Source: Escherichia coli
GTDB taxonomy: Bacteria; Pseudomonadota; Gammaproteobacteria; Enterobacterales; Enterobacteriaceae
Assembly: GCF_044324875.1 (NCBI RefSeq)
Contig: NZ_CP172185.1
DNA length: 64,000 nucleotides
Strand: one strand, 5' to 3'
In this document: in pieces, positions 14,620 through 51,673 of the stretch
Numbering within the stretch: position 1 is the stretch's first letter
Layout of the letters: each line of letters opens with the position of its first letter
Translations under genes and position numbers: made by a program
Notes under the pieces: generated by a model
What the model saw: the letters and a program-made list of their open reading frames with translations, nothing else
Database searches by the model: none
What the model was told of the DNA's origin: nothing

Positions 14620-16707
14620 ATGCGAATAACCACTCTGGCTTCAGTAGCCATCCCTTGTCTCGGATTTTCAGTCAGCAGCATGGCTGCGGAAGATGTGATG
14701 ATAGTCACCGCATCCGGCTATGAAAAAAAATTAACCAGTGCAGCTGCGAGTGTTTCGGTGATCAGTCAGGAGGACTTGCGATCCAGCCAGTATCATGATC
14801 TTGGGGAGGCACTGAGATCCGTAGAGGGGGTGGATGTTGAAAGCGGTACGGGTAAAACCGGTGGACTGGAAATCAGCATCCGTGGAATGCCTGCCAGTTA
14901 TACGCTGATACTGATTGATGGTGTCCGTCAGGGCGGGAGCAGAGACGTAACCCCGAACGGTTTTTCTGCCATGAACACGGGGTTTATGCCACCTCTGGCC
15001 GCCATCGAACGTATTGAGATTATCAGGGGCCCCATGTCCACTCTGTACGGCTCTGATGCCATGGGGGGCGTGGTGAATATCATCACCAAAAAGAATGCAG
15101 ACAAATGGCATTCTTCAGTTAATGCCGGGCTGAACCTGCAGGAAAGTAACAAATGGGGGAACAGCAGCCAGTTTAATTTCTGGAGCAGCGGCCCCCTGGT
15201 GGATAATTCTCTCAGCCTGCAGGTACGTGGCAGCACGCAGCAGCGACAGGGCTCATCGGTCACATCACTGAGCGGCACCTCAGCCACGCGCATCCCTTAT
15301 CCAACAGAGTCACAGAATTATAATGCAGGTGCTCGTCTTGACTGGAAAGCAACGGACAAGGATATGTTCTGGCTTGATATGGATACTGCACGACAGCGTT
15401 ATGATAACCGGGACGGCCAGCTGGGCAGCCTTACTGGCGGTTATGATCGTACCCTGCGCTATGAACGTAATAAAATTTCGGCAGGTTATGATCATGCATT
15501 CACCTTCGGAACCTGGAAGTCATCCCTGAACTGGAATGAGACGGAAAATAAAGGCCGTCAGCTTGTACGCAGCGTACTGAAGCGTGATAAATGGGGACTT
15601 GCCGGCCAGCCGAGGGAGCTTAAGGAGTCGAATTTTATCCTGAATTCCTTACTGCTTGCACCTGTGGGTGAATCTCACCTGGTTACTGTCGGTGGTGAGT
15701 ACCAGAACTCATCCATGAAAGACGGGGTTGTTCTCACCAGTACAGGCGAAACCTTCCGGCAGAAAAGCTGGTCGGCATTTGTTGAGGATGAGTGGCATAT
15801 CACGGATGCGGTTGCACTGACTGTGGGCAGTCGTTATGAACATCATGAGGTGTTCGGAGGACACCTCAGTCCGCGGGCATATATGGTCTGGGATGTGGCT
15901 GATGAGTGGACGCTGAAAGGTGGGGTGACCACGGGATATAAGGCACCCGGCATGGGGCAGTTACATAAGGGGATCAGCGGTGTGTCCGGTCAGGGGCGTA
16001 CGAATCTTCTCGGTAACCCGGACCTGAAGCCGGAGGAGAGTGTCAGCTATGAAGCGGGCGTGTATTACGATAATCATGCCGGTCTGAACGCCAATATCAC
16101 GGGCTTTATGACAGAGTTCTCCAACAAGATCGTATCTTATTCTATTGATGATAATACCCGCAGCTATACAAACAGCGGAAAGGCCAGGACTCAGGGTGTG
16201 GAGTTTGCCGGCACACTGCCTCTGTGGTCAGAGGATGTGACGCTGTCTCTGAATTATACCTGGACGCAGAGTGAACAACGGGATGGGGATAATAAAGGTG
16301 CACCACTGAGTTACACCCCTGAGCATATGGTGAATGCGAAACTGAACTGGCAGATTACTGAAGATGTGTCATCATGGCTGGGTGCCCGTTACCGCGGGAA
16401 AACGCCACGTTTCACCCAGAATTATTCGTCACTCTCAGCTGTACAGAAGAAAGTGTATGATGAGAAAGGTGAATATCTGAAAGCCTGGACGGTACTGGAT
16501 GCGGGCATGTCGTGGAAAGTGACGGATGCACTGACGCTGAATGCAGCGGTGAATAATGTGCTTAACAAGGATTACAGTGACGTAAGTCTGTATCGTGCCG
16601 GCAGTGGTACGCTTTATGCGGGTGATTACTTCCAGACGGGGGCATCGACAACAGGTTATGTGATACCGGAGAGAAATTACTGGATGTCGCTGAGCTATCA
16701 GTTCTGA
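14620..16707 (+). CDS. iha: TonB-dependent outer-membrane siderophore receptor/adhesin, Iha/IrgA-like
   Basis: 695 aa; signal peptide; TonB box EDVMIVTAS; plug motif IEIIRGPMSTLYGSDAMGGVVNIITKK; C-terminal YQF; N-terminus matches recalled Iha sequence. Confidence 0.75.
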   Translation: MRITTLASVAIPCLGFSVSSMAAEDVMIVTASGYEKKLTSAAASVSVISQEDLRSSQYHDLGEALRSVEGVDVESGTGKTGGLEISIRGMPASYTLILIDGVRQGGSRDVTPNGFSAMNTGFMPPLAAIERIEIIRGPMSTLYGSDAMGGVVNIITKKNADKWHSSVNAGLNLQESNKWGNSSQFNFWSSGPLVDNSLSLQVRGSTQQRQGSSVTSLSGTSATRIPYPTESQNYNAGARLDWKATDKDMFWLDMDTARQRYDNRDGQLGSLTGGYDRTLRYERNKISAGYDHAFTFGTWKSSLNWNETENKGRQLVRSVLKRDKWGLAGQPRELKESNFILNSLLLAPVGESHLVTVGGEYQNSSMKDGVVLTSTGETFRQKSWSAFVEDEWHITDAVALTVGSRYEHHEVFGGHLSPRAYMVWDVADEWTLKGGVTTGYKAPGMGQLHKGISGVSGQGRTNLLGNPDLKPEESVSYEAGVYYDNHAGLNANITGFMTEFSNKIVSYSIDDNTRSYTNSGKARTQGVEFAGTLPLWSEDVTLSLNYTWTQSEQRDGDNKGAPLSYTPEHMVNAKLNWQITEDVSSWLGARYRGKTPRFTQNYSSLSAVQKKVYDEKGEYLKAWTVLDAGMSWKVTDALTLNAAVNNVLNKDYSDVSLYRAGSGTLYAGDYFQTGASTTGYVIPERNYWMSLSYQF

Positions 16708-16867: not shown

Positions 16868-17144
16868 CTGAAAAAACTGCCGCTACTGGCAACTGTGTCG
16901 TGGTGGCATGTTACTGGCAGGTGGTTTACGGAGTATGGGCCCAATTCTGGCCTGCCGGAACATGCCCTTATAACCTTTAACACAGCGGTTACATAAAAAA
17001 CAATGTCTTTTGTGCACAGCAGTATTGTGGCTGAAAGTGAAATAAAAGCGCGATATTATACTGCTTCGCGTCCGGTTGTCATTATCATGGATAGTGCGTT
17101 ATGTTTATAAAGGCGTGACGGACGCTTAATTCTCACGCAACGCA

Positions 17145-17166
17145 CCCCTCTTAAATTTTCAGTTTC
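17145..17166 (+). promoter_or_regulatory. conserved upstream motif shared with 6321-6341
   Basis: CCCCTCTTAAATTTTCAGTTTC vs CCCTTAAAAATTTTCAGTTTT, each 80-100 bp upstream of an ICE operon start. Confidence 0.3.
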
Positions 17167-17244
17167 CGGTTTTGAATTTATTGCTGCTATTGGTGCTGCT
17201 TATGCGCACGCTGTAAGTCGGATATTGTCTGACGGAGGCGTACA

Positions 17245-17640
17245 ATGTACCGGATTTTCTGTTCCCTGTTTTTCCTGCCGCTGGCAGCGTCTGCCGGCAC
17301 AACAATTTATACCGATTCTCAGCACCTCCCCGTTAATCCTCCCGATGGTGTCAGGGTGGTTCTGCTGGATGCACCGGAGCAGCTTCAGACCCGCTTTTTT
17401 GGCACGTTGCCTGCTGATGCGGATAAGGCTGAAGCGGTGGTCAGGGCACGTATGCAGTCTCCCGAATGGCAGATGATGCAGGCGGAACTGGCTGCTCATT
17501 ACCGCGATGTGGCACATGCCTGGTCGCTGGGCGTGAAGAAATATCCTGCCGTGGTGTTTGATGACAGTGAGGTGGTTTACGGCATCACGGATGTGGTGGT
17601 GGCCGGGAAACTCCGTACTGAGGGAGGAGTTCAGCCATGA
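17245..17640 (+). CDS. ICE exported protein, function unknown
   Basis: signal peptide; GGAGG RBS. Confidence 0.45.
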   Translation: MYRIFCSLFFLPLAASAGTTIYTDSQHLPVNPPDGVRVVLLDAPEQLQTRFFGTLPADADKAEAVVRARMQSPEWQMMQAELAAHYRDVAHAWSLGVKKYPAVVFDDSEVVYGITDVVVAGKLRTEGGVQP

Positions 17641-18611
17641 TGACCCTGAAAAGTCGTCTGCGTGCCTGCGTACTGTTACTGAGTGTGGCATCACTGCCTC
17701 TGGCGTCTGCGTCACTGAATACTGCCAGCATTATCGCCAGTGCGGCGGCACCGGACTGTATCAGCTGGCGTGTCAGCGGGATTTGTTACTGGCTTTACTG
17801 CAGCGCGTCTGGCTGTACGGTCAGAACTTCCGTGAAGGTGACACATTTCATCCCGGAAGTGGTTATTTCCACCTATACGGCACCGGGTGGTAATCCCTGG
17901 AAAGAGATGTCGCTGGTCAGCCGGACCGCAGGTGGCCCGGAGAATGCCATCACTGACGGCCTGTCCGGGCTGAGTGCCGGCGGGGGAAATCCGGCGGATA
18001 TGAAAATACAGGGGAAGCGCCGTTCAGCCATTCGTTTCAAATACGCAGATGCGCTGGGTCATCCGGCCACACAGCTTATCGGCGGGATGGTACCCGGATT
18101 CAGCTGTGATTCACCGGTGACACCGGCCATGCCCTATTTCCTCAGTACCCTGGACAGCATCGTCTGGCGAACGGGATTACCTGAATCCCTGTATCCAGAG
18201 GCACAGGTTCCCGGCAAACGCGAGATTGGCACCCAGGCCGATAAAAACATGTGGGGGAGCGTTTATCCCCGGAGTGGTTTTGTGATGCAGACCGATGATG
18301 ACCGGGCAGCGGCGGTGGTGGCCCAGCGGGTGGCCGACATTATCACGCGGACGGGGGAGCCGCATGTCTACAGGGAGGTTAAGGGCGTGAAACGTGACGG
18401 CTACTGGCCCCCGGAGGCGGTGGAGGAAAACACCGGCACCCGAAATCACAAATGGCAGCGACTGACGCCGTCAGTGTCGCGTTCCTGTGCCGTTTTCCCG
18501 GATGGTGAACATCAGGCAGCGGAGAACGGTAATGCCGCCTTTTCACTGTGGCAGCCCTATAGCTGCTGTAAAAAGCGCGGGCAGCGATTTCTTGGCAGTA
18601 CGAATTTTTAA
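17637..18611 (+). CDS. TraU-like conjugal transfer protein
   Basis: signal peptide; Cys-rich periplasmic protein about 320 aa at expected operon position. Confidence 0.5.
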   Translation: MMTLKSRLRACVLLLSVASLPLASASLNTASIIASAAAPDCISWRVSGICYWLYCSASGCTVRTSVKVTHFIPEVVISTYTAPGGNPWKEMSLVSRTAGGPENAITDGLSGLSAGGGNPADMKIQGKRRSAIRFKYADALGHPATQLIGGMVPGFSCDSPVTPAMPYFLSTLDSIVWRTGLPESLYPEAQVPGKREIGTQADKNMWGSVYPRSGFVMQTDDDRAAAVVAQRVADIITRTGEPHVYREVKGVKRDGYWPPEAVEENTGTRNHKWQRLTPSVSRSCAVFPDGEHQAAENGNAAFSLWQPYSCCKKRGQRFLGSTNF

Positions 18612-18617
18612 GGAACC

Positions 18618-20039
18618 ATGATGATGAAGATGAAAACAGGTGTGGTGGCACTGAGTGTGATGCTGTGCTGCAGTACTCCGGTGATGGCTGATCTTCTTTC
18701 TCTGCCGAAACTGAATGACAGCACGTTCGGTTACGGGAAATCCGTTGATGGCGCCGTATCCGACAAACTGTTCTATACGCTGGGTGGCGGCTCGGTGATC
18801 TCACAGCCGGCCACGCGCAGCAACATGCAGAAGCTGGGTATGGACCTGGGCTGGAGCAGCGATCTGATGTGCGGCAACTTTGACCTGAAGACCACGGTGG
18901 GTAATCAGCTTAACGGCGTGACTGAAGGCTTTAAAAATCTGATGGGGGATGTGATTCAGGGGGCGACCGGCGCCGTTGCCAGTCTGCCGGCGATGGTGAT
19001 ACAGCGTGCCAATCCAGGCCTGTACGACATGATCACCAACGGTGTGCTGCAGGCGAATGTGGCTTTCGACAAGGCGCAACTGAACTGCCAGAACATGGCA
19101 AAACGGATGATGGACTTTTCTGATCGCAGCAAATGGACGCAGGCTGCGATGCTGGAAGAGTACAAGAAGGTGGTGAACAGCGGTGACGGTGATGCGGTGA
19201 AAGGGGATGAGGCCGGGCGTCAGGCCACCGGGAAGGAGGGTAAGAAATGGATTGGCGGACAGCAGCGCGGCGGGGCAGGTCAGCCCGCCATCCGGCCGGT
19301 GCATGATCTGACAGCGGCCGGGTTTAACATGATGAACAGTCTGCCCGTGACCAGTAGGGCCAGCGTCAGTGCCGGTAACTGTAACGGCAGCGCCTGTGAG
19401 ATGTTCCGGAATGCAGAAGAGGCCGCTAAGGCGGTGGTAAAGGTGCTGGGTGATCGTACCATGCGCACCTGTACGGATGCGAAGGCCTGTACCAGCGGGG
19501 ATAATGAACAGCAACAGGGAACCGTTGCAGGAACGGGGTTTGCGCCGGTGCTGGAAGAGGCGACTAGGGTGAACACGGAACAATTGGTCCGTCTGGTGAA
19601 TGGTCAGGAAAAACCCACTGCAGAGAATCTGGCAAAACTGAAAACCGGCAGTCTGGCTGTATCTGCAGGGGTGATCCATGCCCTGCGTCGTGACCCGGAC
19701 AATATGTCCCTGACGTCACGGCTGGCGGGAGAACTGGCGATGGCGCATACCGTGGAAACGGCTCTGGTGATGCGCAGAATGCTGCTCACCGGGATGTCTG
19801 AGCCGTACGCGGCCGCAGAAGATGCCGCGATTCAGGAAGGCGACCGGCGTATCGCTGCACTGGACAGGGAAATCATGGCGCTGAAGAACGAGATGGAGCT
19901 GAAACGCGATCTGGCACGTAACAGCGTGCTGACCATCATTGAACGCGACAATGAGCGCGTGGGCAGCAACCCGATGATCCAGCCTGCAGACAATACTGAC
20001 AGTCGTGTCCGGGCACTGGACATTCCGGACGGGGAGTAA
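18618..20039 (+). CDS. ICE exported transfer protein
   Basis: signal peptide, 473 aa, C-terminal coiled coil. Confidence 0.45.
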   Translation: MMMKMKTGVVALSVMLCCSTPVMADLLSLPKLNDSTFGYGKSVDGAVSDKLFYTLGGGSVISQPATRSNMQKLGMDLGWSSDLMCGNFDLKTTVGNQLNGVTEGFKNLMGDVIQGATGAVASLPAMVIQRANPGLYDMITNGVLQANVAFDKAQLNCQNMAKRMMDFSDRSKWTQAAMLEEYKKVVNSGDGDAVKGDEAGRQATGKEGKKWIGGQQRGGAGQPAIRPVHDLTAAGFNMMNSLPVTSRASVSAGNCNGSACEMFRNAEEAAKAVVKVLGDRTMRTCTDAKACTSGDNEQQQGTVAGTGFAPVLEEATRVNTEQLVRLVNGQEKPTAENLAKLKTGSLAVSAGVIHALRRDPDNMSLTSRLAGELAMAHTVETALVMRRMLLTGMSEPYAAAEDAAIQEGDRRIAALDREIMALKNEMELKRDLARNSVLTIIERDNERVGSNPMIQPADNTDSRVRALDIPDGE

Positions 20040-20043
20040 GCGT

Positions 20044-20403
20044 ATGGCGATGACTCAGGGGACAAAAGCGGGGCTGGTTCTGAAGGGCGTTAAGGTGGCC
20101 GGCATGTGGCTGTCGGGCCTTATTGCCATGATGATTCTGGCCCTCCTGGTGGCTGATACGGGCATGCGGAATACGCAGGAAGTGGAAGCATTACGGCTCT
20201 GGCTCCACGAGACACGTTTCGGATGGCTGGGGTGGCGGGTGTGCCTCTACGGTGCGCTGGCATGGGGATGCCGGAAAACCTGGCGTGCGCCGGGGTTCAG
20301 ACCGGAATACCGCCGTCCCTTTGCGCGGATTTGTCTGGTCAGTGCCCTGTTTGCGTTACTTTGCGAGTACAGCATTTTTTTCGGACCGGGGGTTGAACTG
20401 TGA
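20044..20403 (+). CDS. small ICE membrane protein
   Basis: GGGGAG RBS; TM helices; table ORF 20005 trimmed to ATG 20044. Confidence 0.4.
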   Translation: MAMTQGTKAGLVLKGVKVAGMWLSGLIAMMILALLVADTGMRNTQEVEALRLWLHETRFGWLGWRVCLYGALAWGCRKTWRAPGFRPEYRRPFARICLVSALFALLCEYSIFFGPGVEL

Positions 20404-21923
20404 CCACGAATAACTATCTGGAACACTTTCTGACCCTGCTGGGCTGGCTGGTGAATAATGGCCTGTGGGATCTGCTGACGGGGACGGGGCTGTTTGCCCT
20501 GCCACTGGCCTTCAGGGTTATCGGGATCTGGCTGAAAGTGCGGGAAGAGGGGGCGGATGAGGGAAATAAAGGGATGCTCTCACTGCCCCGCATTGAGCAT
20601 GCCCTGTATGGTGCATTTTTTGTGATGGTGGCCTGTTGTGTGCCGCTGGTACAGGTGACGCTGGACACGCTGAAATTTGATCGCAGCCGTGCCCAGACCT
20701 GCGGTGTGTGGACACCGAAAGCACCCGGTGATACCGGGTACAGCGGGGTGATCAGCAGCCTGGGTGACAGGACAGCGGCCGCCCCGGTGTGGTGGGTGGT
20801 GGTGCATAAACTCTCCAAAGGTGTGACGCAGGCTGCTGTGGCTTCCATTCCCTGCCGGCCGGATATACGGCAACTGCGTTTTGAGGTGCAGCGGACATTC
20901 ATTGCGAACCGGGCGCTGGCCGACGAGCTGCAGGATTTCACCAACGACTGTTACTCGCTGGCGCTATATCAGTGGAAGCAGCGTGACCAGGGGATGACGA
21001 AGGACAGGAAGCTGCTTTCGGATATCAGCTGGATTGGCAGCAGTACGTTCATGCAGGGTGACTACGGAACACTGCAGTCGAAAATGCCACGTGCGGCATT
21101 CCCGTGGAATAGCGCCCGTGACAGCGGCCGTCCGGATACGGGACGGGGTGGTTATCCCACATGCCGTGAATGGTGGAGTGACAGTAGTGTCGGGCTGAAG
21201 AAGCGGGTGACAGGGGAAGTCGATGAAGGACTGTGGTTGCGTATTTCGGCGGCAATGAAAATGCTGGGGAACGCGCAGGCGAACTACCAGGAGGAAATCA
21301 TCAAACGTCTGGTGAGTCCGGCGAACCTGACCCTGTCACAGGGTGGTGAGGTGTACCGCGGCTATGGCGGTAATGCAGATATGACGGCGGCGAATGCGGT
21401 CACGCGTGCAGCAGGCACGGCGGGGTCTGCCGTTGCGAGTCTGGCAGCGTTTCCGGCGTTTGATGCGATGCGGCAGGCGCTGCCGATGGTGCAGAGTATT
21501 CTGCTGATGGCGGTGTATATCATGCTTCCGTTGATTCTGGCGTTTGCGGCGTATGAATTCAGCACGCTGATCACACTGACGTTTGTGGTGTTTGCGCTGA
21601 ACTTCCTGACGTTCTGGTGGGAGCTGGCGCGGTGGCTTGACAGCTGGATGCTGACGGCCTTGTACAGTTCGGACACGCATTCCCGAGTGAACATGATGGG
21701 GCTGCAGAACACGTCGGATGATATCATCATGAATTTTGTGATGGGCACGATGTTTATTATATTGCCAGCGGTGTGGCTTGGGGCTTTATCCTGGGCGGGT
21801 ATTAGCGCAGGTGTTGCTATTGCTAATGCAGCCAGAGATGGAACAAGTGCAGCACATCAAGCAGCTTCAAAGGCAGGAGATCTTGTTGGGAAAGTAGGAA
21901 ATTCTTTAGGTAAAAATCAATAA
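20400..21923 (+). CDS. TraG_N-like mating-pair stabilisation membrane protein; C-terminal tail AT-rich
   Basis: GTG start overlapping upstream stop; multiple TM helices; composition shifts near 21760. Confidence 0.55.
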   Translation: MTTNNYLEHFLTLLGWLVNNGLWDLLTGTGLFALPLAFRVIGIWLKVREEGADEGNKGMLSLPRIEHALYGAFFVMVACCVPLVQVTLDTLKFDRSRAQTCGVWTPKAPGDTGYSGVISSLGDRTAAAPVWWVVVHKLSKGVTQAAVASIPCRPDIRQLRFEVQRTFIANRALADELQDFTNDCYSLALYQWKQRDQGMTKDRKLLSDISWIGSSTFMQGDYGTLQSKMPRAAFPWNSARDSGRPDTGRGGYPTCREWWSDSSVGLKKRVTGEVDEGLWLRISAAMKMLGNAQANYQEEIIKRLVSPANLTLSQGGEVYRGYGGNADMTAANAVTRAAGTAGSAVASLAAFPAFDAMRQALPMVQSILLMAVYIMLPLILAFAAYEFSTLITLTFVVFALNFLTFWWELARWLDSWMLTALYSSDTHSRVNMMGLQNTSDDIIMNFVMGTMFIILPAVWLGALSWAGISAGVAIANAARDGTSAAHQAASKAGDLVGKVGNSLGKNQ

Positions 21924-21970
21924 ATGGAAAAGAAAATAGCGTTTGTCGGAGTACAAACGCTATTAAAATT

Positions 21971-22177
21971 TTATTTTTGTTCTTCCCATTGTTGATATTC
22001 CCAATAGGGGCGAGAGTCTAAAAAGGCAGGTAATTCATCATTTTTTTCTGGTGAATTTGTCAATTTTATGGAATTTGACAACTCAACAGCCAAAAGTTTT
22101 TTCAGCAGAGAGCTGAAAGTCCATGGGGTATCAGATGTTTTGCAACTCCACATTGCTTTTTCTGTTTCATTGTTCAT
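21971..22177 (-). CDS. small hypothetical protein
   Basis: AGGAGG RBS 7 nt upstream of ATG; AT-rich. Confidence 0.3.
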   Translation of the reverse strand: MNNETEKAMWSCKTSDTPWTFSSLLKKLLAVELSNSIKLTNSPEKNDELPAFLDSRPYWEYQQWEEQK

Positions 22178-22474
22178 CTCGTGCCTCCTGTAAGTGGATA
22201 ATCATCCTGGTACTATCATACGTGTTGTATGATAAATATTCAATGCTTGCAAATCCAGGTGTAATTGTCTGATTTTACTCTTCTTGCTGTACAGCCTGTG
22301 ATGTGGGCCAGGACGTGGCACTGCATGTCACAATAGCTCCAGGAGCTTCAGTCTCAGCCCTGCTGAACATTGTGTGATTAATTTTTAAAAATGCGAAAAG
22401 AATAATCTCTCTTTTTAGTCGTCCGGCTATGCCTTAATTCTCCCTGAGTCAAAACCTGTATCAGGAGAAGCTGA

Positions 22475-23047
22475 ATGAAAATATCAAAACTGGTTGTTAT
22501 GGCTACAGTATGTTCCACGTTGAGTGCATGCTCTGTGGAAGAGATGGCTGCTGTGAACAAGAAAATCAGTGACGGTGCATTTGCTGTGACGAAAGCGCTC
22601 AACGGGGGAACGGGCTACGCGGATAATGGTATGCCGATCCTTAACAAGCAATTGCCGCCGGAGCAGGATAAACGCGAAAATATTATTGATGTCCCTGTTG
22701 ATGTGGATACCGCAGCAGGCCGACTGAAACGCTATTACAAGTTTTACTCAAATGATGAGGTGAATGCGATACGCAATAACGGCACAACTGACGGAAAATG
22801 GCAGGCAAGTGCGATTATTGACAATGGACATATCTGGGATGCGATGCCGGGCAGTTACTACAAAATGGGAGGAAACTGGCGTAAAAGCAGCTTTGATGAT
22901 CACCTGACGATTGAGGTGGAAAAGAACGGTAAGGGAAGCCGGGTCTATATCACCTATGCTTCAGCTTCTCAGGCGCATTTGCAGGCAAGTTCTCTTGAGC
23001 CTCTGTTTAAGCGAGTGAAGGATGTGGCTGAAGGAAAGGTTCGTTGA
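22475..23047 (+). CDS. hypothetical lipoprotein
   Basis: lipobox LSAC; AGGAGAAG RBS. Confidence 0.5.
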   Translation: MKISKLVVMATVCSTLSACSVEEMAAVNKKISDGAFAVTKALNGGTGYADNGMPILNKQLPPEQDKRENIIDVPVDVDTAAGRLKRYYKFYSNDEVNAIRNNGTTDGKWQASAIIDNGHIWDAMPGSYYKMGGNWRKSSFDDHLTIEVEKNGKGSRVYITYASASQAHLQASSLEPLFKRVKDVAEGKVR

Positions 23048-23270
23048 TGAGCACATCACGGGCAAGCCCTTATGGCTAAAGGAGAGGGAGATTGCCCGTG
23101 GCGGCCCACTTTTTTAATCATTTTTTTACCATGTTGTCCAGTATTTTTACATAAGTGAAACATCTGGTGTTGTTTTCTGTTCATCGTGCTGGAAGTTACA
23201 GGGCTTGTAATTGAACGGGGAGAGATGTAATTTACGTGCGCAAAAATTTTACTCAAGGGGGAGAAAACCG

Positions 23271-23534
23271 ATGAAACCGAATATCCATCCTGAATACCGT
23301 ACTGTGGTGTTCCACGATACCAGTATCGATGAGTACTATAAAATTGGTTCGACCATCAAGACTGAACGTGTGATTGAGCTTGATGGTGTCACCTATCCGT
23401 ACGTAACTATTGACGTTTCCTCTAAGTCGCATCCTTTCTACACCGGCAAACTGAGAACTGTTGCTTCAGAAGGTAACGTGGCGCGCTTTAACCAGCGTTT
23501 CGGGCGTTTTGTTGACACCAAAAAAGGTGCCTGA
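23271..23534 (+). CDS. rpmE2: 50S ribosomal protein L31 type B (zinc-independent paralog)
   Basis: 87 aa [18 protein letters not shown]... lacking the Cys zinc motif; near-identical to recalled YkgM. Confidence 0.8.
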
Positions 23535-23575
23535 CCAGAAATTGATCACAGGCGCGCTTGATACGCAAAAGTATT
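23468..23575. repeat. direct repeat copy 1 (about 108 bp; 3' end of rpmE2 plus downstream)
   Basis: about 90 percent identical to 26863-26970. Confidence 0.75.
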
Positions 23576-23640
23576 ATTTGTATTATTTCTGATATTTTAT
23601 TTCAAAGGCGGTATTTACCGCCTTAATTAGTTTTATCCGT

Positions 23641-24813
23641 TTATTTATTTCCTTTTGAACGATTATGCGTAACGCAAAGCATTTCGCAATTATCAGGCTT
23701 ACTTTCACCCCCCTTACTCCATGCGGAAACATGGTCGGCTTCCATTTCTTTCAAAGCCCAGATTTTTGTTTTATTGGCATTATCTGAACTGGCGCAAAGG
23801 GGGCAGTTTGAAATACCTTGTTGCTCCGCTTTATCTGTTTGCCTTTTGTAGGCTTGTTTTTTAATTTTTTCATCAAAAAAGCGAATGTTTAATAAACGTT
23901 TATCAGATTGACCACCTAACACATATTCCCAGATGCCTTTAATGTTTTTTACACTATCATCCTGATATAATTTATTGATTTGCGTGGCTAATTCACCTGG
24001 ATTGTATGGTTTGTCTTTATAGGTTTCGTATAAACGCCCCCATTCCAGTCCGCACATTTCTTTTTTTACCTCGGTAAATGTGGTGTTAACCCAGTCAATC
24101 ACGCTATTGAAATAGGTTTTTAATTCCTTGATATTGTCATCATTACGATGGGCATTCATGTATTCGCTGATATTTCCTTTACTGACCCAGTTTAACGCAC
24201 ATTCTAAAATTTCCTGGCGTTTAACATTACCTTTGATGTAAGCACTCCATTTTTGCACATTTGAATTAGCAGAATTACTGAATTCTGCTTTTGCCAGTGT
24301 AACAAATTTGCCCGAATACACCGCATTCAATAATTCTTGTTCATTTAAAGGGACGCCAGTAATATTAATCGTTTTAAACCATTCTTTAATTTCGCTTTCT
24401 GTACCCTTACATTTGTAAATCAGCAAAGTGGTTTGTTTGATTTTCTCTTGTTGGTCTTGCGGTAAACTATGGAAATAGTATGGCGTGCCTTTATCATCTA
24501 TAATGGCGAATTTTCCGGTAACAAACCGCCCAATACTGGTAATGCGCTGCTGACCATCCAGTACTTCAAATGTATCTTCTGTATCTTTGTCAGGTTGATT
24601 AAAATAAATCAAACCGAGCGGATAACCTTTTAATACTGACTGGATAACTGCCACATCTTTCTTACCGTCTGCATAAATATAATTGCGTTGATATTCGGGC
24701 TGAATGGTAAGCTTTCCTGATAAACCAAACAAGCCTTTTCCCTCCAGTTCATTATAAACAAATCCATCGCACAATTGTTCAACGGTGATTGATGTATCTA
24801 ATTGTGTTTTCAT
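23641..24813 (-). CDS. DUF262 (ParB-like, DGQQR) plus C-terminal HNH nuclease
   Basis: motifs QPEYQR and DGQQR near N-terminus; HNH-like HVSAWSKGG...[10 protein letters not shown] at C-terminus; 15 bp after methyltransferase stop. Confidence 0.6.
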
Positions 24814-24828
24814 TTTTCACTTTTCCTT

Positions 24829-25983
24829 TTATTTATTTTGTGGATTGATGTGTTTAATAAGAATGCGTCCATAAGTACGTTTGCCGTTAATAACTGTACA
24901 CCCACCCCTATCTTCAGAATGTTGAGAATAATTTAAAATCTCCAGTATCTCTTCGGGAGTTGATGCTCGTGTATTACCACTTGCTTGCCAAATAATTTCA
25001 AACTGTTCAGGACAATATTTATCCAAAAAGCTAATTGGCACGCCCATAACTCCTGCATAATCGCTAGGAATACCGTTAGTTCTGGGCACTTCAATAGCAT
25101 CATAATTGTCATATGCCTGATAAGCGTTAGGGTCATTGATAATTTGTTTGTTGTATTTTAAATTATCCGCCATAGACATTAGCTGTAAAGATTGATGCCG
25201 TCTGCCGTGTTCAATATTGGTAAACCAACAAGAGTTACCCAAACGAGTATAATCACCTATATATCCTAGACGCTCCGCTTTTTTCTTATCAGCTTCCCTC
25301 ACATCAGCACCTTGTGGTACAGCAAAAACCATATCATTACCATTCCCAGTAGCACCCAACCAAATTTTATTTCCTTTGATAAGTGGAAAAATCTCTTTAT
25401 AAGTAATAGCATTCATATTACCGATAACGGCAAACTGCTTTTTACCTTCCATAATCCATGCCATAAATTCGCGAAACAGCGAAAAAGGCGGATTGGTGAT
25501 AATTATGTCGCTTTCATCGCGTAGAGCTTTGATTTCATCACTACGAAAATCGCCATCACCCTGCAGGTATTGCCATTTAATATCTTTAAAATCAATTACA
25601 CCATCGTGATTACTGTCTTCGGTTAGCGTGTAAATTTTGCCATGTTTCTGGCTTTTATCACTGTCGTATTGTTCACTTTCGCTTTCAAATAATGATGGCT
25701 GATAAGCTGTGTTTAACTGTTTGGATTGATGAGCGTAGCTGGTACTGATGAGCTTCTTTAATCCAAGTCGTTCAAAGTTTTGTGCAAAATAAAGTGTGAA
25801 ATTGCTCCACTCGGGGTCATCACATGGTAAGAGAATGGTTTTGCCACGAAATACGTCTTTATTGAAATCAAGATAGGCATTCATCTCTTTTTCAATATCA
25901 TGGTATTGGGTGTAAAATTCGTCATTTTTGGCTTTTTTTGCAGCAGAAAGATTACTGTTTTTGGCAGAAATATTCTTTGACAT
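24829..25983 (-). CDS. N6-adenine DNA methyltransferase (NPPF motif)
   Basis: catalytic motif IITNPPF; GGAGG RBS 7 nt upstream. Confidence 0.6.
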   Translation of the reverse strand: MSKNISAKNSNLSAAKKAKNDEFYTQYHDIEKEMNAYLDFNKDVFRGKTILLPCDDPEWSNFTLYFAQNFERLGLKKLISTSYAHQSKQLNTAYQPSLFESESEQYDSDKSQKHGKIYTLTEDSNHDGVIDFKDIKWQYLQGDGDFRSDEIKALRDESDIIITNPPFSLFREFMAWIMEGKKQFAVIGNMNAITYKEIFPLIKGNKIWLGATGNGNDMVFAVPQGADVREADKKKAERLGYIGDYTRLGNSCWFTNIEHGRRHQSLQLMSMADNLKYNKQIINDPNAYQAYDNYDAIEVPRTNGIPSDYAGVMGVPISFLDKYCPEQFEIIWQASGNTRASTPEEILEILNYSQHSEDRGGCTVINGKRTYGRILIKHINPQNK

Positions 25984-26033
25984 TTCAAACCTCCAAAACA
26001 GTATTGAAGGTTTGAAAAAACGGGGTTACATTA

Positions 26034-33331: not shown

Positions 33332-33884
33332 CTGTCTTTGTTCATGGCTTTTCAACAGACCGTTATGCTTTCGCCACCACATGGTAAGGCGGGTCTGATT
33401 TTACTGTTAACCGTACGGTTCACTCTCATACCGTACGGTGGGAGTGAACCCTTTTCATTAAGGACACTCTCATGAAAACGAAAACTTCTGCACCTGCTGT
33501 ATATGTTGGTACCTGGGCTAAATACAACAATGGCAGCATAGAAGGATGCTGGTTTAATGATTTAACCGTTTTTGAAACTGAAAGCGATTTTTTATCTGCG
33601 GCCCGTAAGTTTCATCAGGATGAAAAAGATCCTGAATTTATGTACCAGGATTATGAAAACTTTCCTTCGGGAATGGCTTCAGTGCAAAATGGCATCTGAA
33701 TCGATCGCAGTTTGGCATTCGAATCGATCATGATTTGGCATCCATCTCCGATCACAGTTTGGCATCACAATCGATCACGATTTGGCATGCTTCCGATCAT
33801 TGATTGGCATCCTGCCAGTCACTCCGGGAATTAACTCTTTTCACCACAGTCTCCATTGCCGTGTTTAAACCAGTGGAGACGTCA

Positions 33885-35450
33885 ATGTCCAGAAAGAGAA
33901 AATCCAGGAGCACTATGGAAACCTGTTTTAAGATCCTTCAGCTCAAGTTCGACAAGAAGCTGACTAACCGTTGTATCGGACTGACGTTACACATCAGCGC
34001 CTCAACCGTTTTTGAGGTTCTTGCCCGCTTCAAAGCCTCTTCTCTGTCATGGCCATTACCTGCTGATATATCCCATGACACGCTGGAGAAACTCATTTTT
34101 CCGCCCAAAGACACCTTTGCATCAGAGCTTGTAATGCCTGACATGTTGTACTTCGATACGGAAATGAGAAAACCAGGTGTGACGCGGCAACTGTTGTGGA
34201 TGGAATACAAGGCACAGGCGGGTAACAAAGCGATGGGATACTCGCACTTCTGCCGTTGCTACCGGGAGTGGAAAAAAACGCGACGTCTCTCCATGCGCCA
34301 GGAGCATCGTGCCGGCGAAAAGCTTTTTATCGACTTCTGTGGTCCTACGGTTCCTGTTATTAATCCGGACACCGGTGAGATACGCCGCGTGGCAATCTTC
34401 GTGGCCGTAATGGGGGCGTCCAACTATACCTACGTTGAAGCGTGCGAAGGTCAGGACATGATGTCATGGTTAAATGCCCACAGCCGTTGCCTGACCTTCC
34501 TGGGCGGCGTACCGAAGCTGCTCATCCCCGATAACCTCAGAAGCGCAGTGAAAAAGGCCGATCGATATGAGCCTGTCATCAACGACAGTTATCAGGCACT
34601 GGCTGAGCACTATGGCACGGTTATCATCCCGGCCCGACCACGCAAACCTAAAGATAAACCAAAAGCAGAAAACGGCGTCCTCATCGTTGAACGATGGCTT
34701 CTTGCCCGCATCCGTAATGAAACCTTCCACACGCTCAGGGCGCTGAATGCGCGCCTTAGGGAGTTACTGACAGACATGAATAACCGGCCAATGAAGGGGT
34801 ACGGCAATCAAACCCGTGCAGAACGCTTCCGCATACTGGATGCGCCAGCACTCTCTCCGCTGCCTCTGGCACCTTATGAATACACGGAATACAAAGCTGT
34901 GAAGGTTGGCCCTGACTACCACGTTGAATATGCCCGTCACTGGTACTCCGTTCCACACGAACTGGTCGGTCAGCGTCTGTCACTGAAGGCGGGGCAGTCG
35001 GTGGTACAGCTCTGGCACAAGGGGCAGTGTGTGGCGCAACATCCGCGCAGCACACATGAATATAAACACACAACCAATCCGCTTCACATGCCAGAGCGCC
35101 ACCGGCAGCACGGGACATGGACACCGGAACGCCTGATCGAGCAGGGAAAACGTACGGGCCCGTCCACAGGCCGGGTGGTTGAATCCATGCTGAAGGCAAA
35201 ACCCCATCCGGAACTGGCTTATCGTGCAGTTCTGGGGCTGCTGGCACTTCAGAAAAAATACGGCCCGGAACGGCTGGAAAAGGCCTGTTACGTTGCCCTG
35301 CACTATAACGCCCCTGACAGACGCTTTATCGACAATCTGCTGCGTCACCATCGGGAGAACCTGGAGCTTCCATTATCCCGCCAGGGCGAACAACATCCGG
35401 CATATGCTTCAGAGCATGAAAACCTGCGTGGTCCGGGCTACTACCACTGA
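33885..35450 (+). CDS. istA: IS21-family transposase IstA
   Basis: 521 aa, N-terminal HTH and DDE-like core; GGAGA RBS. Confidence 0.7.
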   Translation: MSRKRKSRSTMETCFKILQLKFDKKLTNRCIGLTLHISASTVFEVLARFKASSLSWPLPADISHDTLEKLIFPPKDTFASELVMPDMLYFDTEMRKPGVTRQLLWMEYKAQAGNKAMGYSHFCRCYREWKKTRRLSMRQEHRAGEKLFIDFCGPTVPVINPDTGEIRRVAIFVAVMGASNYTYVEACEGQDMMSWLNAHSRCLTFLGGVPKLLIPDNLRSAVKKADRYEPVINDSYQALAEHYGTVIIPARPRKPKDKPKAENGVLIVERWLLARIRNETFHTLRALNARLRELLTDMNNRPMKGYGNQTRAERFRILDAPALSPLPLAPYEYTEYKAVKVGPDYHVEYARHWYSVPHELVGQRLSLKAGQSVVQLWHKGQCVAQHPRSTHEYKHTTNPLHMPERHRQHGTWTPERLIEQGKRTGPSTGRVVESMLKAKPHPELAYRAVLGLLALQKKYGPERLEKACYVALHYNAPDRRFIDNLLRHHRENLELPLSRQGEQHPAYASEHENLRGPGYYH

Positions 35451-35466
35451 CAGAAGGAACAACAGT

Positions 35467-36222
35467 ATGAGTGATAACCTGTTAAACAAACTGACCCAAC
35501 TGAAACTCCCGGCGATGGCCGGGAGCCTGATACGGCAGCGGGAAACGCCTCAGACCTACGACGAACTGTCGTTCGAGGAAAGGCTGACGCTGCTGGTTGA
35601 TGACGAGCTTCTGAGCAGGGAAAACAGCCGTGTGGCACGGTTGAGAAAAAATGCCGGCCTGAAATACCAGGCAACACCGGAAGGGCTGCGCTATCCGGCC
35701 TCAAGAGGTCTGCGGGCTGAACAGATGAGAGAACTGCTGAACGGCCACTACATAACCCACAGGAAAAACCTGCTGATAACCGGTCCGACAGGATGTGGCA
35801 AGAGCTGGATAGCCAATGCGCTGGGCGAACAGGCATGTCGACAGAAACACAGCGTCCGGTACTGTAGAACCGGGCGATTACTGGAACAACTGGCTCAGGG
35901 ACGTGTTGATGGCAGCTGGCTGAAATATCTGAAACAGTTGCAAAAAATACAGGTTCTAATCCTGGACGATCTGGGGCTGGAACAGTTAAGTAACGCCCAG
36001 TGTAATGACCTTCTGGAGCTCATAGAGGATCGTTACGGACAAAGCAGCACGATAGTGGTAAGCCAGTTCCCGGTAGATAAATGGCATGGTCTGATGGAGA
36101 ACCCAACAACAGCAGATGCCATCCTGGACAGACTGGTACATAACTCACACCGAGTGGTCCTTCAGGGAGAGTCACTGAGGAAAAATCCCCCGGTAGTGGA
36201 AAGCAGCGAAAAAACGCGTTAA
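35467..36222 (+). CDS. istB: IS21-family helper ATPase IstB
   Basis: Walker A GPTGCGKS, Walker B ILDDLG. Confidence 0.75.
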   Translation: MSDNLLNKLTQLKLPAMAGSLIRQRETPQTYDELSFEERLTLLVDDELLSRENSRVARLRKNAGLKYQATPEGLRYPASRGLRAEQMRELLNGHYITHRKNLLITGPTGCGKSWIANALGEQACRQKHSVRYCRTGRLLEQLAQGRVDGSWLKYLKQLQKIQVLILDDLGLEQLSNAQCNDLLELIEDRYGQSSTIVVSQFPVDKWHGLMENPTTADAILDRLVHNSHRVVLQGESLRKNPPVVESSEKTR

Positions 36223-36823
36223 AAAGCGGTAGAAAAAGTTAAGTTCCCGGTTGATCGAATGGATGCGAATCGCTGATCGGACTTCGATGCCAATCCGTGA
36301 TCGAATAGAGCGGAATACGCAGCTTCAGAATATGGTTTCAACTGGGCTTATGTTGAAGGTTATCGTCTTGCCCGTGAAGAAGGCTGTGAAGATGCATGGT
36401 ATGCATGGGTTTCTAATACCGGTGATACCTGTTTCGAACAGTTCAGGGAGGCGTGGCTTGGTGGTCCTTATGACAGTGAACTCGAGTTCGCCGCGCAGTA
36501 CGTGGATGAATGCGGTTTTCTGTCAGAGGTACCTGATACTGTTGCACGCTATTTTGATTATGAGGCTTTTGCGCGCGATTTGTTCATGGAACTGGATTTT
36601 GTCGACGGACACGTTTTCCATCGGTAACTCACAGCCATGAGGGCGCATATAAGCCGTGTACTGGCGGATGTGATTTCAGCATACATTCTGCTGGTTTTTT
36701 TACCGTTGTTGACAATTTTAATCATCGCGGATGAACAACCTGAACTCTGTTGTTCACCGCCCGGAGGCATCGTTCCTTCGGACGGTGTGCTCTTTCATCA
36801 GAAAGAATCAGACAGGGGGTTTT

Positions 36824-51103: not shown

Positions 51104-51165
51104 ATCGGCCTTCCACGATAAAAACGGGGAAGGTAGGAATAGTGAAACGGAAATGCAATATCGCC

Positions 51166-51184
51166 GTGCCAATCCGGTTTGTGG
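51166..51184 (+). repeat. shufflon crossover repeat R1
   Basis: GTGCCAATCCGGTTTGTGG. Confidence 0.7.
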
Positions 51185-51673
51185 CTTGGAGGCAATAAAG
51201 TGAACTATTCTGCCTGTAAATGGTATGAAGCGACCTCCGCACATTTTATCGGTGGCAGAAGCGGAGGCTCTATTTATTACAAGCCGATTCAGTGCCCTGC
51301 CGGGTACGTCATGACAGGTACAAGAATGTACGGCATCGGAGATGGTGTTGATGAAGAGCACGTCGATGCTTACTGTTGCCCTTTTGGTTAGATTCCGAGG
51401 GCCGGTATTTAATTTTCTCCCGTTGGCTTATTTCTCACAGATTGCTATAGCCTGGAAACAACTCAGGGAGCCAGAGCCAGTAGCAATCCACCGATTGTTT
51501 TTGTAATCAGGGTAACTACCATCTGGTGAGTTGTATCCGTTATGGACCCACTGGGATAACCTGTAGCCGCCGGAGACCAACTTACTCCCCGATGGGCATA
51601 CCGCGTAAGACGATGTCTGAAAGCACCCATTCCCGCCGGATACTGTGAAACGCTCTTTTTTGTCACTGTTTTG

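What the first reader, a model, noticed from the sequence alone, without database searches (positions are those of the whole stretch)
21740..22470. Abrupt composition switch at the end of the TraG_N-like gene marks the transfer-module/cargo junction
Over about the final 55 codons of the TraG_N-like gene the sequence changes from GC-rich to AT-rich and runs into 550 bp of AT-rich noncoding DNA. The native 3' end of the gene appears to have been replaced, so the transfer module may be truncated here. Relaxase and other late transfer functions are not present downstream.
Basis: inference. Interest (0 to 1): 0.4.

Follow-up and report, generated by a model that had tools for sequence, protein, structure and literature searches.

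The report
Swappable tail cassette ending an ICE transfer gene
The drop in GC content at the end of this conjugation gene is real, but the gene is full length: the drop marks a roughly 300-bp segment that related mobile elements exchange as alternative versions, and those versions may determine which elements can enter a cell that already carries one.

Summary
The composition switch is real. GC3 of the TraG_N gene falls from 0.70 to 0.10 after codon 466 (nt 21798), and no shuffle out of 2000 reaches this.

The gene is not truncated. It is 507 aa, it matches positions 2-460 of the 462-position Pfam TraG_N model, and homologues are 498-513 aa, including the transfer-essential 505-aa ICEclc protein. 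Most homologues carry a 31-46-residue, low-GC3 tail after a conserved WAG motif.

The window is an E. coli SPI-7/PFGI-1/ICEclc-type ICE at tRNA-Phe. The type IVb pilus and shufflon genes lie inside the window. In the nearest complete genomes, the relaxase, integrase and tRNA lie just past the window's end.

The "550 bp noncoding" stretch contains a bidirectional terminator and a real 68-aa gene on the minus strand.

The new result is that about 21762-22097 is a hypervariable cassette. It comprises the TraG_N tail, the terminator and the C-terminal part of the small gene. ICEs with 97-99.8% identical flanks carry unalignable alleles here. dS jumps from 0.02-0.09 in the flanks to about 1 in the cassette, yet within an allele type the sequence is under purifying selection. 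The same homology break occurs in other genera, where the partner gene is DUF3742.

Co-resident ICEs carry different alleles. An entry-exclusion specificity role is plausible but unproven.

The parts
20400..21923 (+). TraG_N-domain (VirB6-like) gene, full length at 507 aa. It is the last gene of the MPF_G-type T4SS operon.
   Evidence: Pfam PF07916 scores 263.5 bits and covers model positions 2-460 of 462. RefSeq annotates the same coordinates. Homologues are 498-513 aa.
21762..22097 (.). Hypervariable allelic cassette: the end of the last transmembrane helix, the TraG_N tail, the terminator and the C-terminal part of the convergent small gene.
   Evidence: blastn homology to ICEs with the same backbone stops at 21804/21805 and resumes at 22097. 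Flanks are 97.0-98.9% identical to the window and 99.4-99.8% identical between L007 and L091. The rise in dS begins about 21762.
21801..21923 (+). Codons 468-507 of TraG_N, with the stop codon: the AT-rich tail after the invariant WAG motif. This is allele 'A'.
   Evidence: The GC3 change-point falls after codon 466, with GC3 0.70 before and 0.10 after. Within the allele type, dN is 0.15 and dS 0.84 against L090.
21935..21964 (.). Bidirectional intrinsic-terminator hairpin between the two convergent genes.
   Evidence: A 12-bp stem followed by T-runs was found on both strands. The aligned alleles show a different inverted repeat at this position, judged by eye.
21971..22177 (-). 68-aa small gene (WP_001058560.1). 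It has a conserved N-terminal 27 aa, a hypervariable C-terminal part and no hydrophobic segment.
   Evidence: It is annotated. It has 19 homologue clusters, found in E. coli and Salmonella where a source names the organism. The alignment is. dN/dS is 0.01-0.07. It has no Pfam match at E<=10 and no relation to DUF3742.
22215..22243 (-). Conserved sigma-70-type promoter of the small gene (TTGAAT, 17 nt, TATGAT). It carries an operator-like palindrome, ATCATAC-N5-GTATGAT, at 22215-22233.
   Evidence: The promoter was found in the scan. It is conserved in all eight lineages compared.
22098..22245 (.). Last stretch conserved with other ICE lineages (L003, L004, L094). The junction between conserved backbone and cargo lies at about 22245.
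   Evidence: Identity is 78-80% to L003 and L094 and 71.5% to L004, and ends at 22244/22245.
22475..23047 (+). First gene beyond the junction: a 190-aa predicted lipoprotein (lipobox LSAC). It is not part of the cassette.
   Evidence: The ORF is listed and has no Pfam match. It is 97% conserved in ICEs that carry alleles A, B and C'. It is absent at this position in L003 and L004.

Best explanation
**What it is.** The GC-to-AT switch marks the left edge of a cassette of about 300-335 bp. The cassette lies at the convergent 3' ends of two backbone genes of an SPI-7/PFGI-1/ICEclc-family ICE. One gene encodes the TraG_N (VirB6-like) inner-membrane protein. The other is a small partner gene on the opposite strand.

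**How it behaves.**
- The cassette encodes the roughly 40-residue tail of TraG_N, a bidirectional terminator and the C-terminal part of the partner protein.
- It exists as several old, mutually unalignable alleles, all AT-rich.
- The alleles are moved between otherwise near-identical ICEs. This is inferred to happen by homologous recombination in the conserved flanks.

**What follows (shown).**
- TraG_N here is intact and full length, and the transfer module is not truncated.
- The rest of the transfer machinery lies beyond the cargo, as is normal for this family. The type IVb pilus genes are in the window. The relaxase and integrase are seen only in the nearest complete genomes, just past the window's end.
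- Shown directly: the gene is intact, the allele structure exists, there is a recombination signature, selection is purifying within an allele type, the pattern is family-wide, and co-resident ICEs differ in allele.

**What is inferred.** The two facing C-termini may be specificity determinants of a recognition system. The most likely candidate is entry exclusion between a donor VirB6-like protein and a recipient factor, as in SXT TraG/Eex and F TraG/TraS. The confidence given below is for the structural and evolutionary statement. I put the exclusion function at about 0.25-0.3.
For: **The gene is intact.**
- The Pfam TraG_N model is matched over positions 2-460 of 462.
- Homologue lengths are 498-513 aa, and the tails share a loose consensus.
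- ICEclc Orf53587 is 505 aa and essential for transfer (PMC10018362).

**A cassette with sharp edges.**
- Window against L007, L091 and L097: flanks are 97.0-98.9% identical, with no similarity across 21805-22097.
- L007 against L091: flanks are 99.4% and 99.8% identical, with the same edges.
- The two ICE copies inside strain TUM1886 are 98.9% and 97.2% identical in the flanks and carry alleles A and B.

**Recombination, not local acceleration.**
- Body dS is 0.017-0.086. The last transmembrane helix and the tail have dS about 0.9-1.25 or saturated.

**The alleles are old and constrained.**
- Allele A aligns through the whole cassette with L090 at the same identity as the body, about 80%.
- An A-like tail and an A-like partner end are also seen in Rosenbergiella.
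- Within-type tail dN/dS is 0.05-0.18.
- The partner's C-terminal end has dN 0.02 against dS 2.0.

**The pattern is family-wide.**
- The same homology break occurs at codon 467-471 in Kluyvera/Superficieibacter, Serratia, Photorhabdus and Pectobacterium ICEs.
- In the last three pairs, homology resumes inside the N-terminal half of the convergent DUF3742 gene. In the Kluyvera/Superficieibacter and Kluyvera/Pantoea comparisons it does not resume.

**Context.**
- A complete ICE with ParA-DnaB-ParB-TopoIII, the T4SS, cargo, pil genes, UvrD, a TIGR03760 relaxase, the integrase and tRNA-Phe is present in TUM1886 and CM2.

**For the exclusion idea.**
- Exclusion genes generally abut the VirB6-homologue gene, and the determinants on both proteins are cytoplasmic (PMC11493245).
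- PAPI-1, from the same ICE family, shows an exclusion index of about 298, and its determinant is unknown (PMC5297154).
- No E. coli complete genome carries the same allele twice: A is in 21 genomes, B 10, C' 3, B' 15, C 6 and D 2, always as one copy. Genomes with two ICEs carry A+B, C+D or B'+D'.
Against: **Against a specificity or exclusion role.**
- The E. coli partner protein has no hydrophobic segment or signal peptide, unlike most known exclusion factors.
- Co-variation between the tail type and the partner's C-terminal type (A, C and D types) cannot be separated from simple linkage, because the two are less than 60 bp apart.
- The B and B' tails are 66% identical but are paired with dissimilar partner ends.
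- A Mantel-type test across DUF3742 lineages gave no correlation.
- The absence of same-allele co-residence is weak evidence. By my estimate, chance alone gives P of about 0.1 for 11 two-copy genomes. Shared attachment sites or instability of identical repeats could also explain it.
- Xenorhabdus genomes carry several copies with near-identical tails.

**Against any strong structural claim.**
- The AF2 model is poor (mean pLDDT 55). The cytoplasmic location of the tail is therefore only inferred from helix counting.

**Unexplained.**
- The extreme AT-richness of the tail (GC3 0.10).
Confidence: 0.8

Rival explanations
1. An illegitimate recombination or cargo insertion replaced the native 3' end of the TraG_N gene with foreign AT-rich DNA. 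This left a truncated or defective transfer module without a relaxase.
For: There is an abrupt GC3 change. DNA homology to other ICE lineages stops about 120 nt before the stop codon. No relaxase gene lies inside the 64-kb window.
Against: - The protein is full length and matches the Pfam model to position 460 of 462.
- The tail is homologous in length and loose consensus to tails across Enterobacterales, and it is under purifying selection within its allele type.
- Conserved backbone DNA resumes at 22097-22245.
- The relaxase, integrase and tRNA-Phe lie just past the window's end in TUM1886 and CM2. The pilus and shufflon genes are inside the window.
Confidence: 0.03
2. Neutral island of divergence. 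The two C-terminal tails and the terminator are weakly constrained spacers that diverged rapidly in separate lineages and drifted towards AT. Later recombination homogenised the flanks of ICEs that met in E. coli but could not cross the unalignable island. On this reading the alleles have no specificity function.
For: - The tails are low-complexity (rich in Ala, Gly, Ser, Lys) and poorly predicted (pLDDT below 50).
- Tails, partner gene and neighbouring DNA are all AT-rich.
- Co-variation is explained by linkage, and the Mantel test is null.
- The B/B' pairing is discordant.
- The Xenorhabdus clade keeps one tail type in many copies.
Against: - Within an allele type, both the tail (dN/dS 0.05-0.18) and the partner's end (0.01) are clearly constrained.
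- The same edges recur in several genera with a different partner gene.
- The allele types are retained across genera.
- Near-identical ICEs co-resident in one genome differ exactly here.
- By my calculation, GC3 of 0.10 is below what mutation bias alone would predict for E. coli. That is my own background estimate and was not measured here.
Confidence: 0.35
3. Targeted hypermutation of a 3' variable region, as by a diversity-generating retroelement.
For: The variability is concentrated at the C-terminus of a protein-coding gene.
Against: - No reverse transcriptase is annotated in the ICE, and no template repeat was noticed. A repeat search was not run.
- The variable segment spans an intergenic terminator and the end of a second gene.
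- Alleles differ by indels and at all base types.
- Alleles are stable: 100% identical across 21 genomes.
Confidence: 0.01
4. Assembly chimera or sequencing artefact at the junction.
For: None beyond the abruptness of the switch.
Against: The 291-bp cassette with both flanks is 100% identical in 21 independent complete E. coli genomes.
Confidence: 0.01

Closest known systems
SXT/R391 TraG-Eex and F-plasmid TraG-TraS entry exclusion pairs
   Same: - The target is a VirB6-like TraG protein of the donor.
- The partner gene abuts traG.
- Specificity lies in short variable stretches of both proteins that are cytoplasmic.
- Discrete exclusion groups exist within one element family (PMC11493245, PMC5812530).
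- Here, variable facing C-termini of adjacent genes occur as discrete alleles on near-identical backbones, and co-resident ICEs differ in allele.
   Different: - TraG of F and SXT is about 940-1200 aa with an extra C-terminal domain. That figure is my background knowledge. Here the protein is TraG_N only (507 aa), and the variable part is the extreme C-terminal tail.
[quoted passage not shown] That Eex and TraS are themselves inner-membrane proteins is partly my own knowledge.
- No sequence homology to Eex or TraS was tested or claimed.
- No exclusion phenotype is known for this element.
ICEclc Orf53587 (TraG_N/VirB6 analogue) and the MPF_G ('GI-type') T4SS of ICEclc, PAPI-1, SPI-7 and ICEHin1056
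   Same: - The Pfam domain, length (505 against 507 aa) and position as last gene of the T4SS operon are the same.
- The flanking TIGR03755, TIGR03756 and TIGR03757 genes match.
- The relaxase sits next to the integrase at the far end of the element (PMC10018362, PMC8704644).
   Different: In the papers I could search, nobody describes a hypervariable tail cassette or assigns a role to the tail. For ICEclc the published table lists 5 predicted transmembrane helices. My poor AF2 model suggests 6.
DUF3742 genes convergent with traG in Pseudomonas and Enterobacterales ICEs
   Same: - They occupy the same position and orientation, a few tens of bp after the traG_N stop codon.
- They have a conserved N-terminal half and a variable C-terminal end.
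- They show the same homology-break pattern.
   Different: - DUF3742 proteins are 115-150 aa with a clear hydrophobic segment.
- The E. coli small ORF shows no detectable relationship to them (Pfam none at E<=10; hhalign probability 0.3%).
- The function of DUF3742 is unknown.
ICEBs1 exclusion system (from my own knowledge, YddJ acting on the VirB6 homologue ConG)
   Same: As I recall it, a small protein of the recipient targets a short variable region of the donor's VirB6-like protein. The paper I read says only that ICEBs1 also encodes exclusion determinants (PMC11493245).
   Different: It is a Gram-positive system with no sequence relationship, and the determinant is reported to lie in an external loop. 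That last point is background knowledge and was not checked here.

Membership tests
Pfam TraG_N (PF07916) | A full-length match to the family model above the gathering score | tested here: met
   263.5 bits against a cutoff of 36.1. Residues 9-484 match model positions 2-460 of 462.
SPI-7 / PFGI-1 / ICEclc-type (MPF_G) integrative conjugative element | The T4SS gene set marked by the TIGR037xx 'integrating conjugative element' families, plus the TraD coupling protein and a VirB4-like ATPase | tested here: met
   The RefSeq annotation of the 99.76%-identical TUM1886 region lists TIGR03759, 03747, 03758, 03745, 03750, 03749, 03752, 03751, 03757 and 03756, TraD and a conjugative transfer ATPase. 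TIGR03755 scores 546.8 bits on window 18618-20039.
SPI-7 / PFGI-1 / ICEclc-type (MPF_G) integrative conjugative element | A PFGI-1-class (MobH-type) relaxase and a tyrosine integrase next to a tRNA gene | tested here: met
   These are not inside the window. In TUM1886 and CM2 they follow within about 0.8-3.9 kb of the window's end. TIGR03760 scores 193.1 bits against a cutoff of 161.4. The integrase and tRNA-Phe are annotated.
SPI-7 / PFGI-1 / ICEclc-type (MPF_G) integrative conjugative element | A replication and partition module (ParA, SPI-7-type DnaB, ParB, TopoIII, SSB) at the other end | tested here: met
   It is annotated upstream of the window in TUM1886.
TraG/Eex-type entry exclusion pair | The exclusion gene abuts the gene of the VirB6-like target | tested here: met
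   The small gene ends 47 bp after the TraG_N stop codon, in convergent orientation. The rule is stated in PMC11493245.
TraG/Eex-type entry exclusion pair | The exclusion factor is a small inner-membrane protein or lipoprotein | tested here: not met
   No hydrophobic segment, signal peptide or lipobox appears in any of the 16 aligned alleles of the E. coli small protein. DUF3742 partners in sister lineages do have a hydrophobic segment.
TraG/Eex-type entry exclusion pair | Discrete specificity groups with matched variable determinants in both proteins | tested here: inconclusive
   Discrete alleles exist on near-identical backbones. The A, C and D tail types pair with matching partner ends, but B and B' do not. 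Linkage cannot be excluded, and the Mantel test is null.
TraG/Eex-type entry exclusion pair | An allele-specific reduction of transfer into recipients that carry the element | not testable with these tools
   This needs mating assays. The only indirect evidence is that no E. coli complete genome holds one allele twice, and that genomes with two ICEs hold different alleles.
Pfam DUF3742 | Sequence or profile similarity of the 68-aa protein to DUF3742 | tested here: not met
   No Pfam hit at E<=10. hhalign of the small-ORF alignment against 18 DUF3742-like partners gives probability 0.3%.
Diversity-generating retroelement target | A nearby reverse transcriptase and template repeat, with adenine-specific variation | tested here: not met
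   No reverse transcriptase is annotated in the ICE. No repeat search was run. Alleles differ by indels and at all bases, and the variation extends into intergenic DNA.

The most novel reading that the evidence does not exclude
The cassette (TraG_N tail plus the C-terminal end of the convergent partner, which is the small ORF in E. coli and DUF3742 elsewhere) is the so-far unidentified entry-exclusion or self-recognition determinant of the MPF_G ICE family (ICEclc, PAPI-1, SPI-7, ICEHin1056). Its alleles would define exclusion groups and so decide which ICEs can stack in one genome.
Probability: 0.25. Interest if true: 0.7.

Novelty: new variant of a known kind. Interest (0 to 1): 0.4.

Why it matters
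**As submitted, the finding is mostly ordinary.** A drop in GC at the end of the T4SS operon, next to the cargo, is expected in a mosaic ICE. The inferred truncation is wrong. This matters for annotation: the element should be scored as a complete and probably transfer-proficient ICE that carries iha, restriction-modification systems and toxin-antitoxin genes.

**The cassette is the part worth following up.**
- A short segment spans the facing ends of the VirB6-like gene and its neighbour. It occurs as old, constrained and mutually unalignable alleles on backbones that are up to 99.8% identical.
- The pattern recurs across genera.
- Two near-identical ICEs co-resident in one genome differ exactly here.
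- This is the population signature expected of a specificity determinant.
- PAPI-1 is excluded from cells that already carry it, and the responsible gene is unknown (PMC5297154). In the papers I could search, no exclusion factor has been assigned for this very widespread ICE family.
- The observation therefore gives a concrete, cheap experiment on how these islands compete and accumulate in pathogens.

Tried and rejected
1. **Small ORF as a degenerate DUF3742.** Rejected. Pfam gives nothing at E<=10 and hhalign gives probability 0.3%.
2. **A known RNA family in 21500-23700.** Only a chance Histone3 hit at E=0.23.
3. **Searching for the donor of allele A.** blastn of 21800-22100 against about 85 related loci found nothing. 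Only the metagenomic locus L090 aligns through the cassette, at about 80%.
4. **AF2 model of TraG_N from a 34-sequence alignment.** Mean pLDDT was 55 and pTM 0.35. This was too poor for a fold search, so I used it only to count helices.
5. **Mantel-type partial correlation of tail against DUF3742 C-terminal similarity, controlling for the body.** The correlation was 0.00, and 920 of 2000 permutations reached it. The test is uninformative because most pairs are saturated.
6. **The 190-aa lipoprotein (22475-23047) as the exclusion factor.** Rejected as the variable partner, because it is 97% conserved across alleles A, B and C'. It is absent from other lineages.
7. **Exact source of the window.** Not found. 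No complete genome has the IS21-family insertion at 33683-36321. TUM1886 and CM2 served as proxies.
8. **Marrero & Waldor 2007 (PMC1951900).** The paper is not held. Its content is cited only through PMC11493245 and PMC5812530.
Full report
**1. The observation**

In 200-bp windows, GC is 0.54-0.63 across 21300-21800 and 0.31-0.40 across 21800-22300. The ORF 20400-21923 (+, 507 aa) is a TraG_N protein. Pfam PF07916 scores 263.5 bits, and residues 9-484 match model positions 2-460 of 462.

A two-segment likelihood scan of third-codon positions puts the change after codon 466 (nt 21798). GC3 is 0.70 before and 0.10 after, and none of 2000 shuffles reaches the observed likelihood ratio. A nucleotide-level scan of 17000-26000 puts the change at 21718, with GC 0.574 against 0.396. 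The switch is real, sits at the stated place and is far beyond chance.

The '550 bp noncoding' part is not correct. The stretch 21924-22474 holds three things:
- A 12-bp-stem hairpin with T-runs on both strands at 21935-21964.
- A 68-aa gene on the minus strand at 21971-22177, which RefSeq annotates as WP_001058560.1.
- About 297 bp of intergenic DNA.

**2. What the window is**

The window is 99.76% identical to E. coli TUM1886 (NZ_CP128970). There are two differences: a 2.64-kb IS21-family insertion at 33683-36321 and an inverted shufflon segment at 51163-51696.

The annotation of TUM1886 and of CM2 shows a complete SPI-7/PFGI-1/ICEclc-type ICE at tRNA-Phe. Its gene order is:
- ParA, SPI-7-type DnaB, ParB, TopoIII and SSB.
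- PilL and the T4SS genes of the TIGR037xx families, with iha inserted among them.
- TraG_N.
- Cargo: L31 type B, a GmrSD/HNH endonuclease with an EcoRI-like methylase, CcdAB, ArdA and a type III restriction-modification system.
- TraF, the shufflon recombinase and a type IVb pilus cluster.
- UvrD-like helicase, TraI, integrase and tRNA-Phe.

TraI is a PFGI-1-class relaxase (TIGR03760, 193 bits against a cutoff of 161). The window stops inside the helicase gene, so the relaxase lies about 0.8 kb beyond it. The pilus, shufflon and TraF-annotated genes are inside the window at 47.6-62.5 kb.

In this family the relaxase normally sits beside the integrase, and TraG_N borders the cargo (PMC8704644, Fig. 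1 legend). The absence of a relaxase 'downstream' is therefore an effect of where the window ends. It is not evidence of decay.

**3. Is the gene truncated or its end foreign?**

No.
- E. coli homologues at 84%, 80% and about 70% nucleotide identity are 500, 501 and 504 aa.
- Across the 80 related loci recovered from other Enterobacterales, most intact copies are 493-523 aa.
- ICEclc Orf53587, which is essential for transfer, is 505 aa (PMC10018362).
- All carry 31-46 residues after an invariant W-A-G motif, with a loose shared pattern (G..GT....Q..GG..G).
- In most lineages the tail has GC3 of 0.2-0.4 against 0.55-0.8 for the body. A Xenorhabdus clade and a few others have GC3-rich tails.

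The AT-rich tail of this length is a widespread feature of the family, although its sequence is hypervariable.

**4. What the switch really marks**

DNA homology to related ICEs stops at 21799-21805 and resumes at 22097-22116. Three ICEs share this window's backbone but have no detectable similarity across 21805-22097:

| Comparison with the window | Left flank identity | Right flank identity |
|---|---|---|
| L007 (strain 5CRE51) | 97.7% | 97.4% |
| L091 | 97.9% | 97.5% |
| L097 | 98.9% | 97.0% |

L007 and L091 are 99.4% and 99.8% identical to each other in the flanks and differ over the same interval.

Synonymous divergence shows the same boundary:

| Pair | Body dS | Last transmembrane helix and tail dS | Tail dN |
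|---|---|---|---|
| L007 vs L091 | 0.017 | about 0.9-1.0 | 0.56 |
| window vs L007 | 0.086 | about 0.9 (tail); saturated in the helix | 0.54 |
| window vs L091 | 0.080 | 1.25 in the helix; saturated in the tail | 0.66 |

A roughly fifty-fold jump in dS is a recombination signature. It is not accelerated protein evolution.

The alignment shows synonymous differences rising from about 21762. The cassette is therefore about 21762-22097. It covers the end of the last helix, the tail, the terminator and the C-terminal part of the small gene.

The alleles are old. L090 aligns with the window through the whole cassette at about 80%, the same as the body. An A-like tail with an A-like partner end also occurs in Rosenbergiella.

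The alleles are constrained:
- Within-type tail dN/dS is 0.18 (window vs L090), and 0.07, 0.10 and 0.05 in three other pairs.
- The partner's last 20 codons have dN 0.02 against dS 2.0.

**5. The partner gene**

- The 68-aa protein has a strongly conserved N-terminal 27 residues (dN 0.03-0.06, dS 0.9-1.2).
- Its promoter, TTGAAT-17-TATGAT, is conserved and carries the palindrome ATCATAC-N5-GTATGAT.
- A search of 5.8 billion proteins found 19 clusters, from E. coli and Salmonella where a source names the organism. They have at least six C-terminal types and mosaic internal modules.
- It has no hydrophobic segment, no Pfam match and no relation to DUF3742.

In many other Enterobacterales lineages, and in Pseudomonas syringae ICEs (PMC8895235), a 115-150-aa DUF3742 membrane protein occupies the same convergent position. 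It has a variable C-terminal end.

The same homology break recurs in those lineages. It falls at TraG_N codon 467-471 in Kluyvera/Superficieibacter, Serratia, Photorhabdus and Pectobacterium pairs. In the last three pairs homology resumes inside the N-terminal half of the partner gene.

Conservation between ICE lineages ends at about 22245, just upstream of the small gene's promoter.

**6. Mechanism**

Shown:
- The gene is intact.
- Discrete, old alleles exist and are exchanged by recombination.
- Selection is purifying within an allele type.
- The pattern recurs across genera.

Inferred: the two facing C-termini act as specificity determinants.

The best-fitting known model is entry exclusion. 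In F, SXT/R391 and IncA/C, the recipient factor (TraS or Eex) acts on the donor's VirB6-like TraG. The two genes are adjacent and the determinants are cytoplasmic. [quoted passage not shown] PAPI-1, from the same ICE family, is excluded with an index of about 298, and its determinant is unknown (PMC5297154).

Helix counting on a poor AF2 model gives three helices, then a Cys-containing soluble domain, then three helices, then the tail. This places the tail in the cytoplasm, but the inference is weak.

Population data are compatible with exclusion. In the 5426 complete E. coli genomes, allele A occurs in 21 genomes, B in 10, C' in 3, B' in 15, C in 6 and D in 2, always as a single copy. Genomes with two ICEs carry different alleles:
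- TUM1886 carries A and B, on copies 98.9% and 97.2% identical in the flanks.
- SCU-171 carries C and D.
- STEC2018-553 carries B' and D'.

Against the exclusion model:
- The E. coli partner is soluble.
- Co-variation (the A, C and D types match, but B and B' do not) cannot be separated from linkage.
- The Mantel test is null.
- The co-residence result is weak. By my estimate, chance alone gives P of about 0.1.
- Xenorhabdus genomes hold several copies with the same tail.

I put the exclusion function at 0.25-0.3. A neutral 'island of divergence' remains a serious rival at about 0.35.

**7. Comparison, novelty and verdict**

The element is a member of the MPF_G ICE family, and the gene is a member of TraG_N. 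Both memberships were tested and met.

The cassette works like the variable determinants of TraG/Eex-type systems. It cannot be filed there, because one defining feature (a membrane-bound factor) is not met in E. coli and the phenotype is untested.

I found no description of this cassette in the searchable literature.

The submitted finding is therefore a real but ordinary module boundary with a wrong inference of truncation. The hypervariable tail and partner cassette behind it is a modestly interesting new variant of a known kind. Overall interest is 0.4.

Noticed in passing
window 33683-36321: A 2.64-kb IS21-family element (istA/istB, ISSso4-like) is inserted in the cargo. It is absent from TUM1886 at this site, and no complete E. 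coli genome in the collection has it here. The window's exact source strain is therefore not in that collection.
   Followed up: partly
window 51163-51696: This segment is inverted relative to TUM1886. It lies next to the PilV gene and a tyrosine recombinase (49979-51361), which is consistent with an active shufflon that switches PilV tips.
   Followed up: no
window 22215-22233 (minus-strand promoter 22215-22243): A perfect 7-bp inverted repeat, ATCATAC-N5-GTATGAT, overlaps the -10 box of the small gene's promoter. It is conserved in all eight ICE lineages compared. It looks like an operator for an unknown repressor.
   Followed up: partly
window 14620-16707 and the AT-richer spacer to 17244: The iha siderophore-receptor/adhesin gene (GC 0.52) sits inside the T4SS gene cluster, between the VirB4-like ATPase region and the TIGR03757 gene. 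In sister ICEs the same slot holds taaP or an AraC-family regulator gene, so this is a second cargo hot spot.
   Followed up: no
TUM1886 (NZ_CP128970) 944165-946865 and 5038426-5045741 (L098): One genome carries two ICEs of this backbone. They share the same neighbouring genes (the 190-aa lipoprotein and L31 type B) and differ only in the cassette allele over the 7 kb compared.
   Followed up: partly
window 39269-42184: The type III restriction endonuclease gene is an intact 971-aa ORF in the window and in CM2, but it is annotated as frameshifted in TUM1886.
   Followed up: no
window 23271-23534: A type B (zinc-independent, YkgM-like) ribosomal protein L31 paralogue is carried as ICE cargo directly after the junction. 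It also occurs in sister ICEs of other lineages.
   Followed up: no
loci L053-L080 (Xenorhabdus spp.): A Xenorhabdus clade of these ICEs has a conserved, Met-rich, GC3-rich (0.7-0.9) TraG_N tail, no convergent ORF downstream and often two or three copies per genome. This is the opposite of the pattern in E. coli, Serratia and Photorhabdus.
   Followed up: partly
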